A DNA stretch of 64,000 nucleotides, taken from NCBI GenBank assembly GCA_965203325.1, contig OZ241875.1, forward strand, positions 3,072,001 through 3,136,000. Direction: 5' to 3'. A model generated the notes under the pieces. It did no database searches. It was not told the DNA's origin and saw nothing but the letters and a program-made list of their open reading frames with translations. The stretch is from a bacterium (GTDB taxonomy: Bacteria; UBA8248). Shown piece by piece: positions 5,783 to 37,957 of the stretch. Both the position numbers and the translations under genes were made by a program. The number at the start of each line of letters is the position of its first letter. Within the stretch, counting starts at the first letter, position 1.

Positions 5783-6664
5783 TCAGTCTATCGGCTCGCC
5801 CTGCGTTCTTTCCATCTCGAGGATATCGGCGCGCAGCCTTGTCGTTATCGGGCCGGGGGCGGGAATGGATCGCCCGTCCACCTCGGCCACCGCGTGCACC
5901 CGGCTGAAGGATGACGTGAGGAAACACTCATCCGCCGTGTAGAGGTCATATAGCGTCAAGTCGGCTTCTTCCGCCGGAATGCCCTCTTGCTCGGCAATCT
6001 CCATCACGACCTTCCGCGTGATGCCGTCGAGGACGTTGTGGGCTTTCGGTGTCTTGAGCGCGCCGTCCTTCACGACGAATATGTTCTCTCCCGGTGCCTC
6101 CGCCACGAAGCCGCGAATATCGAGCAGAATCGCCTCATCGAAGCCCGATTCGACGGCTTCGATCCTCGCCATCACGTTGTTGAGATAGTTGAGCGATTTC
6201 ACGCGCGCCTCGAAGGATTCGGAAGGCACCTTGCGCACCCCCGCCGTCTTGAGCCTCAAGCCCGCTCCTTTCGCCTTGTAACTCGAACCCGTCTCGGCGG
6301 GCGGGGCGGGGTCGTGTAAGAGCACGGCGAGCGTCGCCTTATCCGTTACCCTCGGGTCGAGCAGGGGATAGCCCGCGCCGCGCGATACCACGACGCGAAG
6401 GTAGACGTCGTCCACGCCGGAGCGACGGACGCATTCCTTGACGATCTCCGCGATTCGCTCGCGCGATTCGGGCAGCGTGAGCTTGAGCGCGCGCGCCGAT
6501 CGCTCCATGCGGTCGAGGTGTTCGGAGAACTTGAATATCCGCCGGTTCGTCACCGTCATGGACTCGAACAGGCCGTCCCCGTAGAGAAACCCGTGGTCGA
6601 AGGCGGAGACTTTGGCCTCTTCTGCGGTGACGTATTCGCCGTTCACATAGCAGGTATAGGACAC
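5783..6664 (-). CDS. Class IV PLP aminotransferase (IlvE-like)
   Basis: DHGFLYGDGLFE, KSLNYLNN, EAPGENIF, LDGITR. Confidence 0.88.
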   Translation of the reverse strand: MSYTCYVNGEYVTAEEAKVSAFDHGFLYGDGLFESMTVTNRRIFKFSEHLDRMERSARALKLTLPESRERIAEIVKECVRRSGVDDVYLRVVVSRGAGYPLLDPRVTDKATLAVLLHDPAPPAETGSSYKAKGAGLRLKTAGVRKVPSESFEARVKSLNYLNNVMARIEAVESGFDEAILLDIRGFVAEAPGENIFVVKDGALKTPKAHNVLDGITRKVVMEIAEQEGIPAEEADLTLYDLYTADECFLTSSFSRVHAVAEVDGRSIPAPGPITTRLRADILEMERTQGEPID

Positions 6665-6667
6665 GCG

Positions 6668-7564
6668 CTATCCATCCCTTCTCAAGGTTTCGAGAATCGC
6701 GTCGGCGAAGGCTTCCGGCTTCTCGCGCTGGGCGAAGTGGCCGGCGCCCTCCACGAGAATCCTTTGATAGCCGCCCGTGAAATGCCCCTCCTTGCCTTCG
6801 GAACTCTCGGGACGCGACGCCCCGTCCTCGGCGCCTTGCACGAGAACCGTCGGCACGGAGATGTCCGGCAGACCCGCCATGAAACTCTCCGCGTCCTCGA
6901 ATTTTGGATCCGGCGTTTCATACCCCCACCGGTAGCGGTAGGAGTGCATGACGATATCCACGAAGTCGGGGTTCTCGAAAGAGCGCGCGGTGGCCTCGTA
7001 TTCCGCGTCCGGGAAATCCCAGCCTGGGGACCATACACGCCAGAGTTCGCGGCAAAAACCCGCGGCGTCCGCCCCCAGCGCATCGCGGCCCCTCTCGGTG
7101 CAGAAAAACCACTGGTACCAGTAGGCGCGCGCCTGATCGACCGACATCCGCTGCTGCGGGCGGCCCGTGCCGTAGCCCGCGGGACTGACGATTAAGGCGT
7201 TCAACCGCGCAGGCCGCATGGCGGCTACGCAATAAGAAGCCCGCGCGCCCCAGTCGTGGCCCACCAGTGTGAAGCGATCGAGTTCCAGCGCGTCGGCGAA
7301 AGCGGTGAGGTCGGACGCCAGCGCCGTGTACTGGGCGCTTCTGGGGGTCTCAGGGTTCAGAAAGCGCGTAGGCCCGTAGCCGCGCACGTAGGGGCAAAGC
7401 GTCCTTAGGCCCGCATCATTCAGGATGGGAGTGACGCGGTCCCACGTTCTCGCGTCGTCCGGGAAGCCGTGGACGAGAACCACGGGCGGCGCGGTTTCAT
7501 CGCCCGCCTCCAGATAGCCGATTTCGAGCGCGGGGGTCGTGATGGATTTGAGCGCGCCGGGCAT
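6668..7564 (-). CDS. Alpha/beta hydrolase (epoxide hydrolase-like)
   Basis: HGFPD, GHDWGA, GAGHF. Confidence 0.85.
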   Translation of the reverse strand: MPGALKSITTPALEIGYLEAGDETAPPVVLVHGFPDDARTWDRVTPILNDAGLRTLCPYVRGYGPTRFLNPETPRSAQYTALASDLTAFADALELDRFTLVGHDWGARASYCVAAMRPARLNALIVSPAGYGTGRPQQRMSVDQARAYWYQWFFCTERGRDALGADAAGFCRELWRVWSPGWDFPDAEYEATARSFENPDFVDIVMHSYRYRWGYETPDPKFEDAESFMAGLPDISVPTVLVQGAEDGASRPESSEGKEGHFTGGYQRILVEGAGHFAQREKPEAFADAILETLRRDG

Positions 7565-30223: not shown

Positions 30224-31456
30224 ATGACGAAGCCATTAGAAGGCATCCGCGTCCTCGACCTGACGCAGTTTCTCTCGGGTCCGCAGGCCACGCTTTTTCT
30301 GGCGGGGATGGGGGCCGAGGTCATCCGAATCGACAATCCGGCCACGGGCGACCCGGTGGCCTATTCTCCTCCCTACATCGGCGAGAAGGGCGTCTCCTAC
30401 CATCCCCAGACAGATGAAGACCTGGGAATGGCTTACTTGAAGCGTACGCGCGCCAAAAAGGCGATTACCTTGAACATCAAGGACCCCCGGGGTCTCGAGA
30501 TGTTCTACGGGCTCGTGGATCAATCCGACATCCTGGTGGAGAATTTCTCCGTCGGCGTCACGAAAAGGCTCAAGATCGACTACGAGACGCTTCACGCGCG
30601 GAAACCCTCCCTGGTCTACTGCTCCATCACGGGCTACGGCCAGACGGGGCCGGATGCGGGCCTCAAGGGCTACGACGCCGTCTCCCAGGCGGCCTCGGGA
30701 CTCATGAACCTCACGGGATTCCCCGACGGCCCGCCCACCAAGGCGGGCTCCGCGCTCGGTGATAGCGTGGGCGGCACGTTCGCCTTCGGTGCCATCATGA
30801 CGGCGCTCTTTCACCGCGAGCGCACCGGGGAGGGCCAGCAGGTCGACATTTCGATGATCGACTGCATCTTTTCCCTGATCTTCGATGAGCCGATGGATTT
30901 TTACGAACAACTGGGCCTCCCGCCGCGCATCGGCAACCGCATCATGCGGCTCGCCCCGTTCAACGCCTATGAGACGAAAGACGGTTGGGTCATCATCGCC
31001 TCGGGCACCAACGCGCATTGGCACAACATACTGCGCGGCATCGAGCGCGCCGATCTGATCGGCGATGAACGATACGAGGACATGAGCCGGCGCGTGAGCA
31101 GAGTCGCGGAGGTTGACGCCATCATCACCGAATGGACGAAGCGCCGCGAGGCGAAAGAAGCGGTCTCCTCCCTGCGCGCGCAAGACGTCATCTGCGGGCC
31201 GGTGAACACCATCGAGGACATCCTCGCCTGGCCCCACATGCAGGAACGCGGGATGATAGTCGACATCGAACACCCCACCCTGGGAACCCTCAAAAGCGCG
31301 AAAGCCCCCGGTTTTCCCTTCAAGTTCAGCGAGATGGAGGGCGGCTACGCTGCCCCCGCCCCGCTCGTGGGCCAGCACAACGCGGAGATCCTCGGCGGTC
31401 TTCTCGGCGTATCGGACGCGGAGTTGAAAGAGCTGGCGGATGAGGGTGTGGTCTAG
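30224..31456 (+). CDS. Family III CoA-transferase (CaiB/BaiF)
   Basis: PLEGIRVLDLTQFLSGP, VENF, ITGYGQTGP, ALGDSVGG, GEGQQVDISM. Confidence 0.92.
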   Translation: MTKPLEGIRVLDLTQFLSGPQATLFLAGMGAEVIRIDNPATGDPVAYSPPYIGEKGVSYHPQTDEDLGMAYLKRTRAKKAITLNIKDPRGLEMFYGLVDQSDILVENFSVGVTKRLKIDYETLHARKPSLVYCSITGYGQTGPDAGLKGYDAVSQAASGLMNLTGFPDGPPTKAGSALGDSVGGTFAFGAIMTALFHRERTGEGQQVDISMIDCIFSLIFDEPMDFYEQLGLPPRIGNRIMRLAPFNAYETKDGWVIIASGTNAHWHNILRGIERADLIGDERYEDMSRRVSRVAEVDAIITEWTKRREAKEAVSSLRAQDVICGPVNTIEDILAWPHMQERGMIVDIEHPTLGTLKSAKAPGFPFKFSEMEGGYAAPAPLVGQHNAEILGGLLGVSDAELKELADEGVV

Positions 31457-31527
31457 GGGGTCGATTCCGAGCGAGAAGCGAGGAATTGCGAACCGATGCG
31501 TTTCTCATCCGCAGCAAACGCTCTTTC

Positions 31528-31916
31528 CCCGGGGTTGTCGAAAAACCTCCCTCTTCGGCGGGGGCATCGCCTTTATCCCCTTGAGGGGGGTTGTTGAAAA
31601 AGCCCCTCGATGTGGGAAAACCACCGTCATTCCGGCGAAAGCCGGAATCCATTATATGATTTTTGTTTTCGTTTTCGCTTTTGACTCCGGCTCGAGGGAA
31701 GGAGCGCCGCGCCCGAATTCGGAACGGATGAGGCGAATTTATATGGCGGCGTCCAAATCTTCCCCGGTCGGGAGAGAGAGCGTCCGGGCGAAAGGCCAAA
31801 GACAAAGCCGAAAATGGATTCCGGCTTTCGCCGGAATGACGAACAAAGGCGAAGGTTAATCTCAATCGAAGCGAGGCTATTTCAGTAAGCCCCTCAAGGG
31901 GTTGTTGAAAAACTCC
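31528..31916. repeat. Composite repeat cluster: CGTC inverted pair and three GGGGTTGT(T/C)GAAAAA motifs
   Basis: CGTC units at 31624-31651 and 31815-31841; motifs near 31531, 31587 and 31897. Confidence 0.85.
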
Positions 31917-32166
31917 GAAAAGAAGAGGTTGACCTGACGGAACAGGCCCGCCGATTCTTGCCTGCGCAAGGCCAGGGCGCGGGGCGTGAACATGGAGTTT
32001 CACCTCTTCGAGGGCCGGGCGCACAACCTCTCGCGCAAGGAGAGGGCGCGGCGGCTGATTCTCGATTTTCTCAGCCGTCACCATAGGGCCGAATAAAGGC
32101 GGCATCGCCCGTACCCCTGTGATAGGATGCTCGATATCGCAAACTTGAAGCTGGAGGCTCATCTTC

Positions 32167-33153
32167 ATGCGGATCTGTACGTTCAGCCTGGCGGGCGAGG
32201 CGCGCATCGGCGTGTTGTTCGGGGAGAAAATCGCCGATCTGAAACTGGCCTGCGCCCTGTCGCTGGATGAGGAAACAGCGGCGGAGGCCATGGATCGCGT
32301 CGAGGCCGAGGTTCCCGATGATTGCGAGGAGTTCATCGAGGATCTGGAACTGAACCGCCCTCTCGCCGAGGAGGCTCTCGAAGCGATCGAGGCGCATTCG
32401 GGCAAAAAAGACCCGATCCGCTTCGACGGGATGCAGGTGGTCTATGAACCCGATGAAGTCGAGATTCTCCCTCCCGTCGTGCCGGACACGCTGTTTTGCA
32501 TGGCGAGGAACTACGTGGCCCATGCCGCCGAGATGGCGCGCACCGAAGTGGATGATTTCAAGGAGGAACTCCCGCTTTATTGTTTCCTGAAGCCCGCCAC
32601 CTGCGTGAGCGGCCCGTATGAGGACGTGCCCGTCTATCCCTCGATGGAAAAGCTCGACTACGAACTCGAACTCGGCGTGCTCATCGGCCAGGGCGGCAAG
32701 AACATTCCGGTGGAAAGGGCCATGGACCACGTGGGCGGCTACACCCTGTTCAACGACATGAGCGACCGCACGAGCCTCAACATGGGCAAGTTCATCGACT
32801 GGTACGCCATGAAGGCCCCGGACGGCTTCGCCCCCATCGGCCCCTATATCCTGCTCCCCGAAGAGGGGCTCGACCCCCACGATTTGAGGCTCAAGCTCTG
32901 GGTGAACGGCGAACTGAGGCAAGACGCCACCACGGGCGACATGGTCTGGCGGGTCGCCGAGCAGGTATCGTATCTCTCGGGGATAGCGACCTTGCGGACG
33001 GGCGACATCATCGGCACCGGCTCTCCTGCCGGCAACGCCGCCTCGTGGGGGGAATATCTCCAGGCGGGCGACCTGATAGAGGGCGAAATCGAGGGTATCG
33101 GGCGCCAGGCTTTTCGAATCAAGAGTGAAAGCCCCGAATATACGCCGGGCTAG
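32167..33153 (+). CDS. Fumarylacetoacetate hydrolase family protein
   Basis: RNYVAHAAE, LDYELELG, NDMSDR, GDIIGTGSPAG. Confidence 0.9.
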   Translation: MRICTFSLAGEARIGVLFGEKIADLKLACALSLDEETAAEAMDRVEAEVPDDCEEFIEDLELNRPLAEEALEAIEAHSGKKDPIRFDGMQVVYEPDEVEILPPVVPDTLFCMARNYVAHAAEMARTEVDDFKEELPLYCFLKPATCVSGPYEDVPVYPSMEKLDYELELGVLIGQGGKNIPVERAMDHVGGYTLFNDMSDRTSLNMGKFIDWYAMKAPDGFAPIGPYILLPEEGLDPHDLRLKLWVNGELRQDATTGDMVWRVAEQVSYLSGIATLRTGDIIGTGSPAGNAASWGEYLQAGDLIEGEIEGIGRQAFRIKSESPEYTPG

Positions 33154-33247
33154 TTCTCCTGGCGGTTGATTCGCATCCGTTTGCGCATTAAGATTTTCGC
33201 ATCGATCAATGGAATTCCGAATCGCTGAAACCCGAGAGGGGACCCTC

Positions 33248-34615
33248 ATGAATCCAGCCATAGCCGAAGCCGAATCCCTGCGGACGATGGACAAGGAACA
33301 CGTCTGGCATCCGCTCATGAACCATTCCGGGATGGAGGAAAATCCCCTCGACGTCGTGGTCAAGGCCAGGGGTTCGACCATCCAGGACGCCTCGGGCAAG
33401 GAATACATCGACGCCATGGCGGGGCTTTGGTGCGTGAACATCGGCTACGGGCGCGACGAGGTGGCCAAGGCGGCCTACGAGCAGATGTTGGAATTGGCCT
33501 ATTACCCGCTGACGCAGGTGAACCCGCCCGCGGCGAGGCTTGGCCAAAGGCTCGCTTCCTTGCTGCCCGAGGGCGTCGAGCGCGTCTGGTTCGTCAATTC
33601 CGGCTCAGAAGCCGTGGACACGGCCATCAAGATCGCCCGCGCCTATGGACGCTTAAACGGCGGGAGGCGATACAAGGTCATCGCCCGCCACCAAGGCTAT
33701 CACGGGGCGACCATCGGAGGCGCCAGCCTCACCGGCCAGACGCTCCGGCGCGCGATGTTCGAGCCGCTGCTCCCGGGCGTGATTCACGTGAGCGCGCCCT
33801 ATTTCTACCGAAGCAACGCGGATACCGAGGAAGAACTCGCCCGCCGGTGCGCGGACGAGTTGGATGAGGTCATCCGCTACGAAGACCCCGAGACCGTGGC
33901 GGCGTTCATCGCGGAGCCCGTCATCGGCGGCGGCGGGGTGATTCCCCCGCCAGCGGATTACCTGAAGCGCATGCGCGAGGTGTGCCGGAACCACGGCGTG
34001 TTGTTCATCGCCGATGAGGTCATCACAGGATTCGGGCGGACGGGGCAGCTCTTCGCCTCGGACCTCTACGAGATCGAGCCGGACATCATGACGATGGCCA
34101 AGGGGCTGAGCAGCGCCTATCTGCCCATCGGGGCGACGGCGACCACGAACGAGATATTCGAGGCCTTAAACGCCGAGGGCGACACCGGGTTCCTGCAGAT
34201 AAACACCTACGGCGGGCACCCCGTCGCCTGCGCGGCGTCGCTCAAGAACCTCGAGATCATGATGGACGAGGAATTGCCCGCGCGCGGCGCCAAGGTGGGC
34301 GCATATCTCGGCGGGCTTTTGGGCAAGCTCTCCGACATCCCCTGCGTGGGCGACGTGCGGGGCGTGGGCCTTATCTGGGGCGTGGAGTTGATAGAAGAGA
34401 GCGGCGCGCCGCTCTCCACGGCGGCCACGGCGAAGGTGCTGGCATACGCGAAGGAGCAAGGCGTGATCTTCGGCAAGAACGCCGGCATCGCGGCGGGCCC
34501 TTCGAACACCGTCACCATCAGCCCGCCGCTGGTCTTGACCGAAGAGGAAGCCGAGCGCGCCGCCTCCGCTCTCGACACCGCCCTGCGCCGCGTTCAGGCG
34601 GAGAGCGGAGCCTGA
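33248..34615 (+). CDS. Class III PLP aminotransferase (omega-amino acid type)
   Basis: DAMAGLWCVNIGYG, SGSEA, YHG, DEVITGFGRTG, AKGLSSAYLP. Confidence 0.92.
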   Translation: MNPAIAEAESLRTMDKEHVWHPLMNHSGMEENPLDVVVKARGSTIQDASGKEYIDAMAGLWCVNIGYGRDEVAKAAYEQMLELAYYPLTQVNPPAARLGQRLASLLPEGVERVWFVNSGSEAVDTAIKIARAYGRLNGGRRYKVIARHQGYHGATIGGASLTGQTLRRAMFEPLLPGVIHVSAPYFYRSNADTEEELARRCADELDEVIRYEDPETVAAFIAEPVIGGGGVIPPPADYLKRMREVCRNHGVLFIADEVITGFGRTGQLFASDLYEIEPDIMTMAKGLSSAYLPIGATATTNEIFEALNAEGDTGFLQINTYGGHPVACAASLKNLEIMMDEELPARGAKVGAYLGGLLGKLSDIPCVGDVRGVGLIWGVELIEESGAPLSTAATAKVLAYAKEQGVIFGKNAGIAAGPSNTVTISPPLVLTEEEAERAASALDTALRRVQAESGA

Positions 34616-34666
34616 TGCGATAGCCGATAATCCGGTCTTATTCGCTATCCTTTTGGGAGATTTCAT

Positions 34667-35338
34667 ATGTCCAACATCACGATGCTCGACATCGAGGATC
34701 TGAAGAAGACGAAGCTGGCGCCGTTCGTGAACAAGGCGCTCAAACACCGCGCGCCCGACCCCGCCTTTCACGCCATGCAGGGCCACAACGAGGATTTGGC
34801 GAAGTCGATGTACCTCGCGTGGGGTACGGTGTTCAACACCGGCGTCATCGACCACAAGCTCAAGGAGATCATCCGCGTTCAGCTCTCGCGCCGCGCCTTT
34901 TGCAACTACTGAGGGAACGTGCGCTCTGCTTCGGCGAAGCAGGCCGGCCTGACGGAAGAGATGATAGACGAGGGCATCGACAACTGGCGCGAGAGTGAGC
35001 TTTTCACCGAAGCCGAAAAACTCGCGCTCGAATACAGCGAACTCATGGATTCGGAACCCGAGAAGATTGACGAGGCCTTCTACGCGAGGCTTCGCGAGCA
35101 CTACTCGGATGAGGAGATCGTGGAACTCGGCTCCTTCATCGGCTTCAACGTGGGCTACCACACCTTTTTCAGGACGCTCGATTTCTACCCCATGTTCACC
35201 CCCGACGGGCGGCTGGTGAGTCAGGAGGAATCGCGCCGCGTCTACGGCGATTGCCCCGTCTCGCACATGAGCGGGCCGCTTGAGCGCGCGCTCGAAGAGG
35301 GCGAGGCGCAACAGGCAGGCGGAAGCCAGGAGGGGTAG
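34667..35338 (+). CDS. AhpD/carboxymuconolactone decarboxylase-like selenoprotein, 223 aa, CxxU (Sec82, TGA 34910-34912)
   Basis: ORFs 34667-34912 and 34919-35338 share a frame; LKEIIRVQLSRRAFCNY-U-GNVR aligns without gaps to the adjacent paralog; perfect hairpin follows. Confidence 0.92.
34926..34942 (+). promoter_or_regulatory. Candidate bacterial SECIS hairpin
   Basis: CTGCTTC[GGC]GAAGCAG, perfect 7-bp stem; G-initiated loop 21 nt after TGA. Confidence 0.75.
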
Positions 35339-35340
35339 CC

Positions 35341-35946
35341 ATGCCGATCATCGAGCCGCTCGAACCCGAAGGAATTGAAGAGAAGAACTGGAAGCGCGTC
35401 ATGGAGCGCACCGCCGAGACCCAGGCGCCCGATGCGCTTTTCTCGCGCGTGATGGCGCATGCGCCCGGTTACGCCGGACCCCTGCACGACGCCATGCACC
35501 GCTCCCACGCCATGGGCGGGGTGGAGCACAAGCTCAAGGAGATGATTCGCATCCAGCTCGCCAGGACCGCGCAGGACACCTACTTCGCGAACCTGCGCTC
35601 CGAGCAGGCGAAAAAAGAAGGTCTGACGGAAGAACGCATCGAGGCCGCCTGCGGCGATTTCGAGAACGACCCGCAGTTCACCGAAGCCGAGAAGTGGGCG
35701 CTCCGCTATTCCTACTGGATGTACCGGGACGCCGCGAAGCTCGACAAGGAATTCTACGACGAAGGCAAGAAGCACTTTTCAGAAGCCCAGATCATGGAGA
35801 TCGGCGCGATGGTGGCGATTCACTATGGTTTCCAGGTCTTCATGCGCACGCTCAAGGCTTATCCCTTGCACGATCCCGAGGGAAACCCGGTGACGCAGGC
35901 GCAGTCCGAGCAGATTTACGGTGAAGACGTGCCCCTGCCTTCTTGA
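35341..35946 (+). CDS. AhpD/CMD-like paralog lacking the redox motif (DTYF in place of CNYU)
   Basis: HKLKEMIRIQLAR, FTEAEKWALRYS, HFSEAQIMEIG, colinear with the upstream gene; GGAGGGG upstream. Confidence 0.85.
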   Translation: MPIIEPLEPEGIEEKNWKRVMERTAETQAPDALFSRVMAHAPGYAGPLHDAMHRSHAMGGVEHKLKEMIRIQLARTAQDTYFANLRSEQAKKEGLTEERIEAACGDFENDPQFTEAEKWALRYSYWMYRDAAKLDKEFYDEGKKHFSEAQIMEIGAMVAIHYGFQVFMRTLKAYPLHDPEGNPVTQAQSEQIYGEDVPLPS

Positions 35947-36000
35947 GTTTTTCTGTTGAGCGGAAAGTCCCCATGAATCGATGGAGGTGCGATGGTTTTG

Positions 36001-36270
36001 CAGGGGGTAAATGCGATGCCACCCGCAATCCCTCCCGCATGGGTTGAGGCCGTCCATAACACCGTCATTCCGGCATGCGCCGGAATGACGATCCGAGGCG
36101 AATGACGTGTATGCCTGTAGGGGCCGTTCGTGAACGGCCCTTGCCGGAGAAACGGGCGCTTCACGAAGCGCCCCTACGGGTTCGTTTCCAAACGCAAGAG
36201 ATGCGTAGGAGCGGGTTTTCTCCCACCCGGGCATCGCTTTGGAGTCGGACACCGAGGGTGGCCGGAATGA
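36001..36270. repeat. Repeat cluster: about 75-bp copy of 5207-5280, a collapsed CGTC palindrome and a GTAG doublet
   Basis: CGTCATTCCGGCATGCGCCGGAATGACG; GTAGGGGCCGTTCGTGAACGGCCCT; GGGCGCTTCACGAAGCGCCCCTAC. Confidence 0.8.
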
Positions 36271-36550
36271 TCGAATCGATGCGGTGAAGCCGGATCGCGC
36301 CGAACTCGTCAGTATCTCCGGTGAAAAAAATTCTTGAATCCCTCCCTCTCTCCATGCTCTAATGAGTGCGTCAGCACCACGACAGCGAACGTCCATGCCC
36401 GGAGGCGCGTATGCAGACCCACATTCCGCCTCGAACCGACCGCCATCTCGCGCGTCATGTTCCGCCCGCCTCCGTTGCAGCCCTACCCCCCGGCGCCATA
36501 GAAAATGCCTTTGAAAAACAAGCGGATTTCACCAGAATTGGAGCGAACCC

Positions 36551-37957
<1,407 letters not shown>

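What the first reader, a model, noticed from the sequence alone, without database searches (positions are those of the whole stretch)
34667..35946. Hidden CxxU AhpD-like selenoprotein paired with a motif-less twin: candidate active/inactive heteromeric selenoenzyme
Seen: two short ORFs join through TGA 34910 into one 223-aa frame. The next gene starts 2 nt after its stop and aligns without gaps across the TGA (HKLKEIIRVQLSRRAFCNY-U-GNVRSASAKQAGLTEE vs HKLKEMIRIQLARTAQDTY-F-ANLRSEQAKKEGLTEE), with similarity continuing to the C-terminus. This is internal evidence that the TGA is a sense codon. A perfect 7-bp hairpin follows the TGA in gene 1 and is absent from gene 2. Both proteins have Arg where AhpD normally has His (CxxCxxxH). 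Known: AhpD/CMD-like selenoproteins exist and AhpD folds oligomerise. Inference: the intact twin is a conserved non-redox subunit (scaffold or substrate binding), and the pair is not a standard peroxidase reductant. I do not recall this arrangement being described.
Basis: partly seen in the sequence, partly recalled or inferred. Interest (0 to 1): 0.88.

Follow-up and report, generated by a model that had tools for sequence, protein, structure and literature searches.

The report
Selenoprotein gene with inactive twin partner
Two short reading frames are really one gene for a selenium-containing redox protein of a known kind, and it is always followed by a sister gene that has lost the redox residues and probably serves as its fixed partner subunit.

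Summary
Gene 1 (34667-35338) reads through TGA 34910-34912 to a 223-aa CMD/AhpD-fold protein with C79-N-Y-U82. Gene 2 (35341-35946) is a 36%-identical paralog with D-T-Y-F at that place.

The TGA is a selenocysteine codon. It is kept in all 146 orthologs examined (114 distinct). A hairpin 14 nt downstream shows compensatory changes and frozen synonymous sites. The genome has selA, selB, selD and tRNA-Sec, and distant relatives carry Cys there.

The twin follows gene 1 wherever the contig allows, in Nitrospinota, Alpha- and Betaproteobacteria and Acidimicrobiia. It is often translationally coupled and is under purifying selection. Nine protein-database clusters hold the two fused in one ORF. 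Gene 2 was never seen without gene 1 (39 of 39 genomes).

An obligate active/inactive heteromer is therefore likely but not shown. A thioredoxin gene directly upstream in 15 of 57 loci points to thiol/selenol redox chemistry.

CxxU AhpD-like selenoproteins have been known since 2005. I found no paper on the conserved dead-paralog partner. This scan noted the same pair earlier on other DNA (e1-1110118, e1-2372917).

The parts
34655..34659 (+). GGGAG, likely ribosome-binding site of gene 1
   Evidence: Read directly; it lies 7 nt before ATG 34667.
34667..35338 (+). Gene 1: 223-aa CMD/AhpD-fold selenoprotein (C79-N-Y-U82-G-N-V-R86), stop TAG 35336-35338
   Evidence: (PF02627, 29.9 bits against cut-off 23). 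Orthologs.
34901..34903 (+). Cys79 codon (TGC), first residue of the CxxU motif
   Evidence: Cys in 116 of 116 distinct orthologs. Aligns with Cys48 of PA0269.
34910..34912 (+). In-frame TGA, the selenocysteine codon (U82)
   Evidence: TGA in all 146 orthologous segments examined, 114 of them distinct. Aligns with Cys51 of PA0269. Distant relatives have Cys here.
34926..34942 (+). SECIS-type hairpin: 7-bp stem, loop GGC; the first stem base is column 17 counted from the T of TGA (13 nt lie between the TGA and the stem)
   Evidence: CG 72 / UA 34 / UG 8 at pair 2; 0 of 500 shuffles reach this; third-position entropy 0.26 bit against 1.35.
35328..35333 (+). AGGAGG, ribosome-binding site of gene 2, inside the end of gene 1
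   Evidence: In other lineages the two genes overlap by 1 or 4 nt.
35341..35946 (+). Gene 2: 201-aa paralog without redox residues (D79-T-Y-F82-A-N-L-R86), stop TGA 35944-35946
   Evidence: AF2 model pLDDT 91.6. AhpD-like fold by Foldseek. dN/dS 0.15.
35575..35586 (+). Codons D79-T-Y-F82 of gene 2, at the place of CxxU
   Evidence: D79, Y81 and F82 are each kept in at least 95% of 131 distinct twins.

Best explanation
Gene 1 encodes a genuine selenoprotein of the CMD/AhpD fold. UGA 34910 is decoded as selenocysteine by SelB with the hairpin at 34926-34942. This gives a C79-x-x-U82 thiol/selenol redox centre in the helix-hairpin that carries the CxxC of AhpD, together with Glu67 and Tyr81 and with Arg86 where AhpD has its relay His. 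Gene 2 arose from one old duplication of that gene and lost both redox residues (Cys to Asp, Sec to Phe), but it kept the fold and most surrounding residues. I infer that the two products assemble into a fixed heteromer. By analogy with the trimer-of-dimers rings of PA0269-type proteins this would most likely be a (gene1.gene2)3 ring, with only the gene 1 subunits doing redox chemistry and gene 2 acting as a structural or substrate-binding partner. I infer that the centre cycles between selenol/thiol and selenenylsulfide and is re-reduced by a thioredoxin. The oxidant or substrate is unknown. Shown: the Sec codon, the SECIS constraint, the conservation and co-inheritance of the pair, the fusions and the fold of gene 2. 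Inferred: physical binding, stoichiometry, the reductant and the chemistry.
For: Sec decoding:
- TGA is kept in 146 of 146 orthologous segments (114 distinct).
- The hairpin pairs in 98.5% of cells, with double changes at 3 of 7 pairs and 0 of 500 shuffles as good; slid controls pair in 29-62%.
- Synonymous sites of hairpin codons 87-92 are nearly frozen, 0.26 against 1.35 bit.
- selB scores 392.8 bits, selA 571.4, selD 333.2, and tRNA-SeC is present.
- Cys stands at the same place in 7 distant relatives.
- The alignment to PA0269 puts E67, C79, Y81, U82 and R86 on its Glu, Cys48, Tyr, Cys51 and His55. Relay residues are from PMC3141380, passages read.

Partner:
- The twin is adjacent in 27 of 27 related genomes, in 56 of 57 genome loci (the 57th contig ends) and in 66 of 66 metagenome loci that show the TGA.
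- Gene 2 has gene 1 directly upstream in 39 of 39 genomes of the phylum sample.
- The order is always gene 1 then gene 2, with spacing from -4 to +127 nt in all but one locus.
- Nine database clusters are single ORFs made of the gene 1 C-part, a linker and gene 2. In P0009, residues 1-115 match gene 1 85-199 at 71% and residues 163-342 match gene 2 at 58%. The P0016 form is seen at full length (352 aa) in 6 of the 15 listed cluster members, on separate contigs.
- In the tree gene 2 is one clade (SH-aLRT 100), gene 1 is one clade (81), and the subtrees are congruent (quick tree).
- dN/dS is 0.077 for gene 1 and 0.151 for gene 2 (184 pairs).
- D79, Y81, F82, R86 and S87 are each kept in at least 95% of 131 twins.
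- The gene 2 model has pLDDT 91.6 and matches PA0269, Bmp8 and DrAhpD.

Redox link: a thioredoxin gene (PF00085, 67.7 and 76.5 bits in the two copies scanned) lies directly upstream in 15 of 57 loci.

Expression hint: two sponge metatranscriptome contigs bridge the TGA and the gene junction.
Against:
- Fusions are rare: 0 of 57 genome loci, 0 of 80 metagenome loci, and none among proteins longer than 391 aa.
- Sec-bearing singletons without a twin exist (G025, G029), so the fold can work alone.
- The hairpin is no more stable than shuffled sequence (z +0.65 over 48 nt; z +1.54 over 91 nt).
- Other neighbours are not conserved across phyla, and the thioredoxin is absent from the Nitrospinota loci, this window included.
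- RNA-library contigs may contain DNA and do not prove one transcript.
- The careful tree search did not finish.
Confidence: 0.6

Rival explanations
1. The twin is an independent enzyme or binding protein. It is a tandem paralog that took on a non-redox task, is co-transcribed with gene 1 in the same pathway, and does not form a stable complex with it.
For: The twin keeps its own conserved pocket residues (H63, E67, R70, D79, Y81, F82, R86). It evolves 2-3 times faster than gene 1. CMD-fold proteins include non-redox enzymes and are described as having structurally independent sites (PMC3141380). In one locus a 390-aa Meth_synt_2 gene separates the pair (L089).
Against: Gene 2 was never found without gene 1 (39 of 39 genomes). 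The order is fixed, start and stop often overlap, and the two recur fused in one polypeptide. Taken together these features are typical of subunits rather than pathway neighbours.
Confidence: 0.2
2. The twin is a transient helper rather than a permanent subunit. It could be an assembly or protection factor that shields the reactive selenol, or a docking adaptor that hands gene 1 to its reductant or substrate.
For: The same co-occurrence data apply. Asp and Phe at the former redox positions are conserved rather than decayed. M. tuberculosis AhpD itself is described as an adaptor between proteins (PMC3141380, Background).
Against: Covalent fusion in nine clusters argues for permanent 1:1 proximity. 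No direct evidence exists for a chaperone-like role.
Confidence: 0.12
3. The TGA is a true stop. Gene 1 is then a split or decaying gene, or the TGA is an assembly error, and only fragments are made.
For: Gene callers annotate it that way: most database hits are 123-144-aa products called after the TGA.
Against: TGA is at the same codon in 146 of 146 orthologs across four phylum-level groups, with purifying selection on both sides of it (dN/dS 0.077). The hairpin covaries and the Sec machinery is complete. A DNA contig identical over 34682-35448 exists in run X1, which may be the source sample.
Confidence: 0.01

Closest known systems
AhpD-like CxxU selenoproteins of marine metagenomes ('AhpD-like protein', COG2128: 27 sequences in the Sargasso Sea, PMC1088965; 'AhpD-like 1', 299 sequences in GOS, PMC2398784 Table 2; listed in the review PMC13188914)
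   Same: CMD/AhpD fold, CxxU motif with Sec at the second position, and a SECIS hairpin with G in the apical loop just downstream. Gene callers routinely cut the gene in two. JGI names some homologs 'alkylhydroperoxidase family enzyme'.
   Different: The passages I read in those papers do not mention a conserved motif-less paralog next to the gene. I could not test COG2128 membership because no COG library is held. Gene 1 falls below the cut-offs of the NCBIfam models tied to that family (TIGR01926: 37.2 against 81.8).
P. aeruginosa PA0269 (2O4D/2IJC/7XW1) and M. tuberculosis AhpD
   Same: PA0269 is the best solved relative of gene 1 by sequence (E 2.8e-9) and of the gene 2 model by fold (E 3.7e-5, TM 0.79 on the target). 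The same helix-hairpin carries Glu, Cys-x-Tyr-Cys. PA0269 forms a planar hexameric ring of 2-fold dimers (PMC3141380).
   Different: These proteins are homo-oligomers with CxxC in every subunit and His at +4. Here there is Sec in place of the second Cys, Arg in place of His, extra N- and C-terminal segments, and a second, inactive subunit type. No AhpC gene is seen among the annotated neighbours.
NCBIfam NF053654 'YciW-related (seleno)protein' (GroundWater_YciW)
   Same: Best NCBIfam hit of both genes (71.2 and 41.1 bits). It is a CMD-type family that includes selenoprotein members.
   Different: Both scores are far below the 310-bit cut-off, so neither gene is a member. No specific curated model covers either gene.
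Debrominase Bmp8 (6OHI/6OHJ), a CMD-fold cysteine-dependent reductive dehalogenase
   Same: Whole-length fold match to the gene 2 model (TMq 0.70) and a sequence match to gene 1 (E 4.6e-5). It shows that this fold can do thiol-based chemistry other than peroxide reduction.
   Different: Only 20% identity. No halogenation genes are seen nearby. The link to dehalogenation is a lead only. The Bmp8 paper was not found in the library.

Membership tests
Bacterial selenoprotein gene (SelB/SECIS-decoded UGA) | In-frame UGA conserved at one codon among orthologs, with coding conservation on both sides | tested here: met
   TGA at codon 82 in 146 of 146 segments, 114 distinct. dN/dS 0.077 over the whole gene.
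Bacterial selenoprotein gene (SelB/SECIS-decoded UGA) | Stem-loop shortly downstream of the UGA with G in the apical loop, under RNA-level constraint | tested here: met
   7-bp stem at columns 17-23/27-33 with invariant loop GGC. 3 of 7 pairs have compensatory changes and 0 of 500 shuffles reach this. Synonymous sites are frozen. The distance and loop rule is recalled from bSECISearch. The figure legend of PMC1088965 mentions conserved apical guanosines. The folding energy is not exceptional.
Bacterial selenoprotein gene (SelB/SECIS-decoded UGA) | Genome encodes selA, selB, selD and tRNA-Sec | tested here: met
   selB 392.8 bits (cut-off 242.25), selA 571.4 (267.9), selD 333.2 (125; itself with 1 TGA), and tRNA-SeC(tca) at 1876711-1876807.
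Bacterial selenoprotein gene (SelB/SECIS-decoded UGA) | Cys-containing homologs at the Sec position | tested here: met
   7 distant relatives (30-37% identity) have C-x-x-C there: L103, L104, L107, L108, L110, L117, L118. No Cys form occurs among orthologs at 58% identity or more.
Bacterial selenoprotein gene (SelB/SECIS-decoded UGA) | Selenium actually incorporated into the protein | not testable with these tools
   Needs 75Se labelling or mass spectrometry.
CMD / AhpD-like superfamily (Pfam PF02627) | Match to the family profile above the gathering score, or the fold | tested here: met
   Gene 1 scores 29.9 bits against 23. Gene 2 scores 21.9, just below, but its model (pLDDT 91.6) matches PA0269, Bmp8, 2PRR and 6K40 at Foldseek probability 1.00.
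AhpD proper (alkylhydroperoxidase D, partner of AhpC) | Proton relay Glu118, Cys130, His132, Cys133, His137 (PMC3141380) | tested here: not met
   Glu67, Cys79 and U82 (for Cys133) are present. Tyr81 stands for His132, as in PA0269. Arg86 replaces His137 in both genes.
AhpD proper (alkylhydroperoxidase D, partner of AhpC) | Genetic link to ahpC or a peroxiredoxin | tested here: not met
   None among the 15 ORFs annotated at 23.7-43.2 kb of the window, nor among recurrent neighbours in 57 loci. The recurrent neighbour is a thioredoxin.
NCBIfam TIGR01926 (peroxidase-related enzyme) and NF053654 (YciW-related (seleno)protein) | Score above the curated cut-off | tested here: not met
   Gene 1 scores 37.2 against 81.8 and 71.2 against 310. 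Gene 2 scores 41.1 against 310.
Obligate heteromer of an active and an inactive paralog | Strict co-occurrence, fixed order, translational coupling, natural fusion | tested here: met
   27 of 27, 56 of 57, 66 of 66 and 39 of 39. Overlaps of 1 or 4 nt are common. Nine fused clusters.
Obligate heteromer of an active and an inactive paralog | Physical association of the two proteins | not tested

The most novel reading that the evidence does not exclude
The pair is an obligate (alpha-beta)3 hetero-hexameric selenoenzyme. It would be the first heteromeric enzyme of the AhpD fold and the first selenoprotein with a dedicated, catalytically dead paralog as a fixed subunit. No Cys ortholog was found among 146 genes in four phylum-level groups, which would mean the chemistry truly needs selenium. 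That chemistry could be reduction of a substrate that thiols handle poorly, possibly a dehalogenation-like or organo-chalcogen reaction rather than peroxide removal. It would be fed by a dedicated thioredoxin. The same active-plus-dead design appears to have arisen a second time in Gaiellaceae- and Chloroflexi-type genomes.
Probability: 0.35. Interest if true: 0.65.

Novelty: new variant of a known kind. Interest (0 to 1): 0.5.

Why it matters
AhpD-like CxxU proteins are among the most frequent selenoproteins in ocean metagenomes (299 of the 'AhpD-like 1' type in GOS, PMC2398784), yet none has a known substrate or solved assembly. If one widespread clade works only together with an inactive sister subunit, expression and assay attempts with gene 1 alone would fail or mislead. 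Annotation pipelines should then join the two gene 1 ORFs and name gene 2 as its partner. The pair also offers a clean natural case of a pseudoenzyme subunit retained for a very long time beside a selenoenzyme, with fused and unfused forms available for comparison.

Tried and rejected
- A search for fused forms longer than 391 aa found none. The tool itself calls this weak evidence.
- None of the 80 metagenome loci fetched with the fused protein P0009 is fused.
- No neighbour is conserved across phyla beyond the thioredoxin. A recurrent short-chain-dehydrogenase-like cluster sits at varying distance and on varying strands. CoA-transferase, FAA hydrolase and class-III aminotransferase recur in only 6-8 of the 57 neighbourhoods clustered, all with gene 1 at 94-97% identity to the window's.
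- The Rfam scan of 34000-37000 at E up to 1 gave no match.
- The promoter and terminator scan gave nothing above shuffles.
- Hairpin stability against shuffles was not significant.
- Cys104 of gene 2 as a resolving thiol is rejected. It is Cys in only 76 of 131 twins and Ser in 37, and 25 twins have no Cys at all.
- First dN/dS run with dS up to 1.5 gave 0.22 and 0.32. I replaced it with the less saturated set.
- The careful tree search did not finish in 288 s, so the quick tree is used.
- Literature: searches found no paper on the pairing, and one search found no Bmp8 paper. Haft and Tolstoy 2025 (mSystems, 'Novel selenoprotein neighborhoods') is not held, and one search found only papers that cite it. 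It could bear on the novelty claim.
- Depth or absence in the sequencing runs is not used as evidence.
Full report
**1. What is in the window**

ORF 34667-34912 (81 aa) and ORF 34919-35338 (139 aa) share a frame and are separated only by TGA 34910-34912. Read through, they give a 223-aa protein with the motif C79-N-Y-U82-G-N-V-R86. Gene 2 (35341-35946, 201 aa) starts 2 nt after the TAG of gene 1, with AGGAGG at 35328-35333.

The two proteins are 36% identical over 199 residues (E 1e-43), with no gap near the TGA. Gene 2 has D-T-Y-F where gene 1 has C-N-Y-U. Both hit Pfam CMD (PF02627): 29.9 bits for gene 1 and 21.9 for gene 2, against a cut-off of 23.

The best NCBIfam hit of both genes is the YciW-related (seleno)protein model NF053654. 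The scores are 71.2 and 41.1 bits against a cut-off of 310. TIGR01926 gives 37.2 against 81.8 for gene 1. So no specific curated model covers either gene.

**2. Is the TGA a selenocysteine codon?**

The genome is one contig of 4.39 Mb. Its nearest named relatives are Nitrospinota MAGs at 97% identity, and sponge metagenomes hold the stretch. It has:
- selB, 392.8 bits, and selA, 571.4 bits, with overlapping match coordinates;
- selD, 333.2 bits, itself with an in-frame TGA;
- tRNA-SeC.

I collected orthologs from three sources:
- 41 related genomes;
- 80 loci of named species genomes, the best 80 of 306 relatives;
- 80 metagenome loci.

Every gene 1 ortholog of 58% identity or more carries TGA at codon 82. 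The counts are 57 genome loci, 66 metagenome loci and 23 loci from related genomes, two of them singletons. That makes 146 segments, of which 114 are distinct. Some loci come from the same genomes, so these are not 146 independent observations. No ortholog has Cys. Cys stands at this position only in 7 distant relatives of 30-37% identity.

The hairpin occupies columns 17-23 and 27-33 counted from the T of TGA. Its loop GGC is invariant. Of 798 cells, 98.5% pair. Pair 2 is C-G in 72 sequences, U-A in 34 and U-G in 8, and two further pairs each show one double change. None of 500 shuffles reaches the observed values, and slid partners pair in only 29-62% of cells.

Third codon positions inside the hairpin (codons 87-92) have 0.26 bit of entropy, against 1.35 bit for comparable codons elsewhere in the gene. 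This shows an RNA-level constraint directly. Against it, the hairpin is no more stable than shuffled sequence, so the case rests on comparison and not on energy. Gene 2 has no such hairpin at the same place.

A DNA contig of run X1 is identical over 34682-35448. That run may be the source sample. Two contigs from sponge metatranscriptome libraries, about 95% identical, span both the TGA and the gene junction. This is a hint of expression, not proof.

**3. The twin**

Gene 2 follows gene 1 wherever the contig allows:
- in 27 of 27 related genomes that hold gene 1;
- in 56 of 57 genome loci, where the contig of L043 ends;
- in 66 of 66 metagenome loci that show the TGA.

Of the other 14 metagenome loci, 12 start inside the C-terminal part of gene 1 and then show the twin. 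The remaining 2 start inside the twin.

In a sample of 51 genomes of the phylum, gene 2 is present in 39, always with a TGA-bearing gene 1 directly upstream. Four more genomes have only a gene 1-like match: two are singletons and two lie at contig ends. Eight genomes have neither gene.

The pair occurs in MAGs labelled Nitrospinota, Rhodospirillales and other Alphaproteobacteria, Burkholderiales and Betaproteobacteria, and Acidimicrobiia. Spacing runs from a 4-nt overlap to +127 nt. The exception is L089, where a Meth_synt_2 gene lies between the two.

A quick maximum-likelihood tree gives these results (the careful search did not finish):
- gene 2 forms one clade (SH-aLRT 100);
- gene 1 forms one clade (81);
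- two twin-less Sec singletons are their neighbour (95 for the three together);
- the two subtrees are largely congruent;
- gene 2 branches are 2-3 times longer.

Both genes are under purifying selection. The median Nei-Gojobori dN/dS is 0.077 for gene 1 and 0.151 for gene 2. This uses 184 pairs from 32 loci with dS between 0.05 and 0.6.

In 131 distinct twins, H63, K66, E67, R70, D79, Y81, F82, R86 and S87 are each kept in at least 95%. The former site has therefore been remodelled, not left to decay. The only frequent Cys of the twin (position 104) is Cys in 76, Ser in 37 and Leu in 7 of 131, and 25 twins have no Cys at all. The twin is thus redox-inert as a class.

**4. Fusions**

Among database homologs, nine clusters of 313-371 aa are single ORFs. 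Each holds the part of gene 1 after the TGA, a linker of about 50-90 low-complexity residues, and a gene 2-type domain with D-x-Y-F. The callers started these ORFs after the TGA.

In P0009, from a SAR324 MAG contig of 314 kb, residues 1-115 match gene 1 85-199 at 71% and residues 163-342 match gene 2 3-182 at 58%. The P0016 cluster has six listed full-length (352 aa) members on separate contigs of up to 47.7 kb, so this form is not a one-off error.

Fusions are nevertheless rare. There are none in the 57 and 80 loci examined. A search of proteins longer than 391 aa also found none, which is weak evidence.

**5. Fold and mechanism**

The AlphaFold2 model of gene 2 was built from a 33-sequence alignment. 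It is all-helical, with pLDDT 91.6 and pTM 0.88. Foldseek matches it to:
- PA0269 (2O4D/2IJC), E 3.7e-5;
- debrominase Bmp8 (6OHI/6OHJ), TMq 0.70;
- 2PRR, 2PFX, 2GMY, 2OYO and 3C1L;
- D. radiodurans AhpD (6K40), TMq 0.72.

By sequence, gene 1 aligns to PA0269 with E67, C79, Y81, U82 and R86 on its Glu, Cys48, Tyr, Cys51 and His55. PMC3141380 (passages read) gives the AhpD relay as Glu118, Cys130, His132, Cys133 and His137 plus a water molecule. It describes PA0269 as a planar hexameric ring built from 2-fold dimers, and 2OYO as hexameric too.

From this I infer a thiol/selenol centre in gene 1 with Sec at the position of AhpD Cys133. I recall, but did not check here, that Cys133 is the attacking nucleophile. 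I also infer a ring in which gene 2 takes every second place. Arg86 in place of the relay His is also found in the Cys-containing relatives, so it is a trait of the wider subfamily. A selenol needs no base to be deprotonated, and Arg could stabilise the selenolate; this is inference.

A thioredoxin gene (PF00085, 67.7 and 76.5 bits in the two copies scanned, motif C-V/S-P-C) ends within 60 nt of the start of gene 1 in 15 of 57 loci. All 15 are labelled Alpha- or Betaproteobacteria or Burkholderiales, or simply proteobacterium, and none is Nitrospinota. This fits thioredoxin as the reductant. The substrate remains unknown.

The window's own neighbours are CoA-transferase III, FAA hydrolase, class-III aminotransferase and an ammonium transporter. 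The first three recur in only 6-8 of the neighbourhoods clustered, all close relatives of the window.

**6. What is known and what is new**

CxxU AhpD-like and CMD-domain selenoproteins were predicted from the Sargasso Sea in 2005 (PMC1088965, passages and tables) and counted in GOS (PMC2398784, Table 2 and passages). They are listed in a 2026 review (PMC13188914, passages and section 9) and in BSepDB (PMC13326102, passages). None of the parts I read mentions a motif-less paralog partner.

Full-text searches for the arrangement found nothing relevant. Haft and Tolstoy 2025 on selenoprotein neighbourhoods is not held and could bear on this.

Earlier notes of this scan (e1-1110118, e1-2372917) reported the same pair on other genomes, with the same verdict on the selenoprotein.

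**7. Verdict**

Gene 1 is a real but already known kind of selenoprotein (about 0.95). That gene 2 is its fixed, inactive partner subunit is the best reading (about 0.6), but it rests on comparative genomics only. I rate it a new variant of a known kind, interest 0.5.

Noticed in passing
G000:C1 1754388-1754903(-), 280590-280976(-), 1653368-1653805(+), 2407346-2407723(-); Cys form at 3930769-3931200(+) (outside the window): Four more CMD/AhpD-like ORFs in the same genome have a stop at the second position of C-x-x-C, and one paralog has Cys there. This Nitrospinota genome probably encodes at least five AhpD-like selenoproteins. None of the others has an adjacent twin among the tblastn hits.
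   Followed up: partly
G000:C1:1726679-1727641(-) (outside the window): The selD match (333.2 bits) contains one in-frame TGA, so SelD itself is probably a selenoprotein here.
   Followed up: no
L086, L091, L093, L095, L099 (e.g. L099:6001-6561 and 6568-6939): In MAGs labelled Gaiellaceae, Actinomycetes or Chloroflexi, a distantly related C-x-Y-U protein of about 186 aa is followed directly by a 123-aa helical ORF. That ORF resembles the C-terminal half of the fold, lacks the motif region and has no Pfam hit. This looks like a second selenoprotein-plus-dead-paralog pair.
   Followed up: partly
L082:5995-7890: One MarineAlpha12 MAG has thioredoxin, gene 1, gene 2 and then a second TGA-bearing copy of gene 1 (58% identity) in a row.
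   Followed up: no
L089:5460-6632: In one Burkholderiales MAG a 390-aa cobalamin-independent methionine-synthase-type gene (Meth_synt_2, 105.5 bits) sits between gene 1 and gene 2. This is the only locus where the pair is split.
   Followed up: partly
P0063 (database protein, 181 aa): This single protein has a gene 1-like N-terminus, a D-S-Y-F motif and a gene 2-like C-terminus. It sits at the base of the gene 2 clade on a very short branch. It could be a recombinant between the twins or an assembly chimera.
   Followed up: no
window 35950-36550: The 600-nt gap between gene 2 and the ammonium transporter gene holds several GC-rich inverted repeats. Contigs of three runs (X1, X4, X15) leave the window sequence exactly at 35950. 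This suggests a strain-variable insert of repeat elements.
   Followed up: no
window 30224-34615: CoA-transferase III, FAA hydrolase and class-III aminotransferase genes precede the pair. They recur with it in only 6-8 of the neighbourhoods clustered, all with gene 1 at 94-97% identity to the window's, so no general functional link is apparent.
   Followed up: partly
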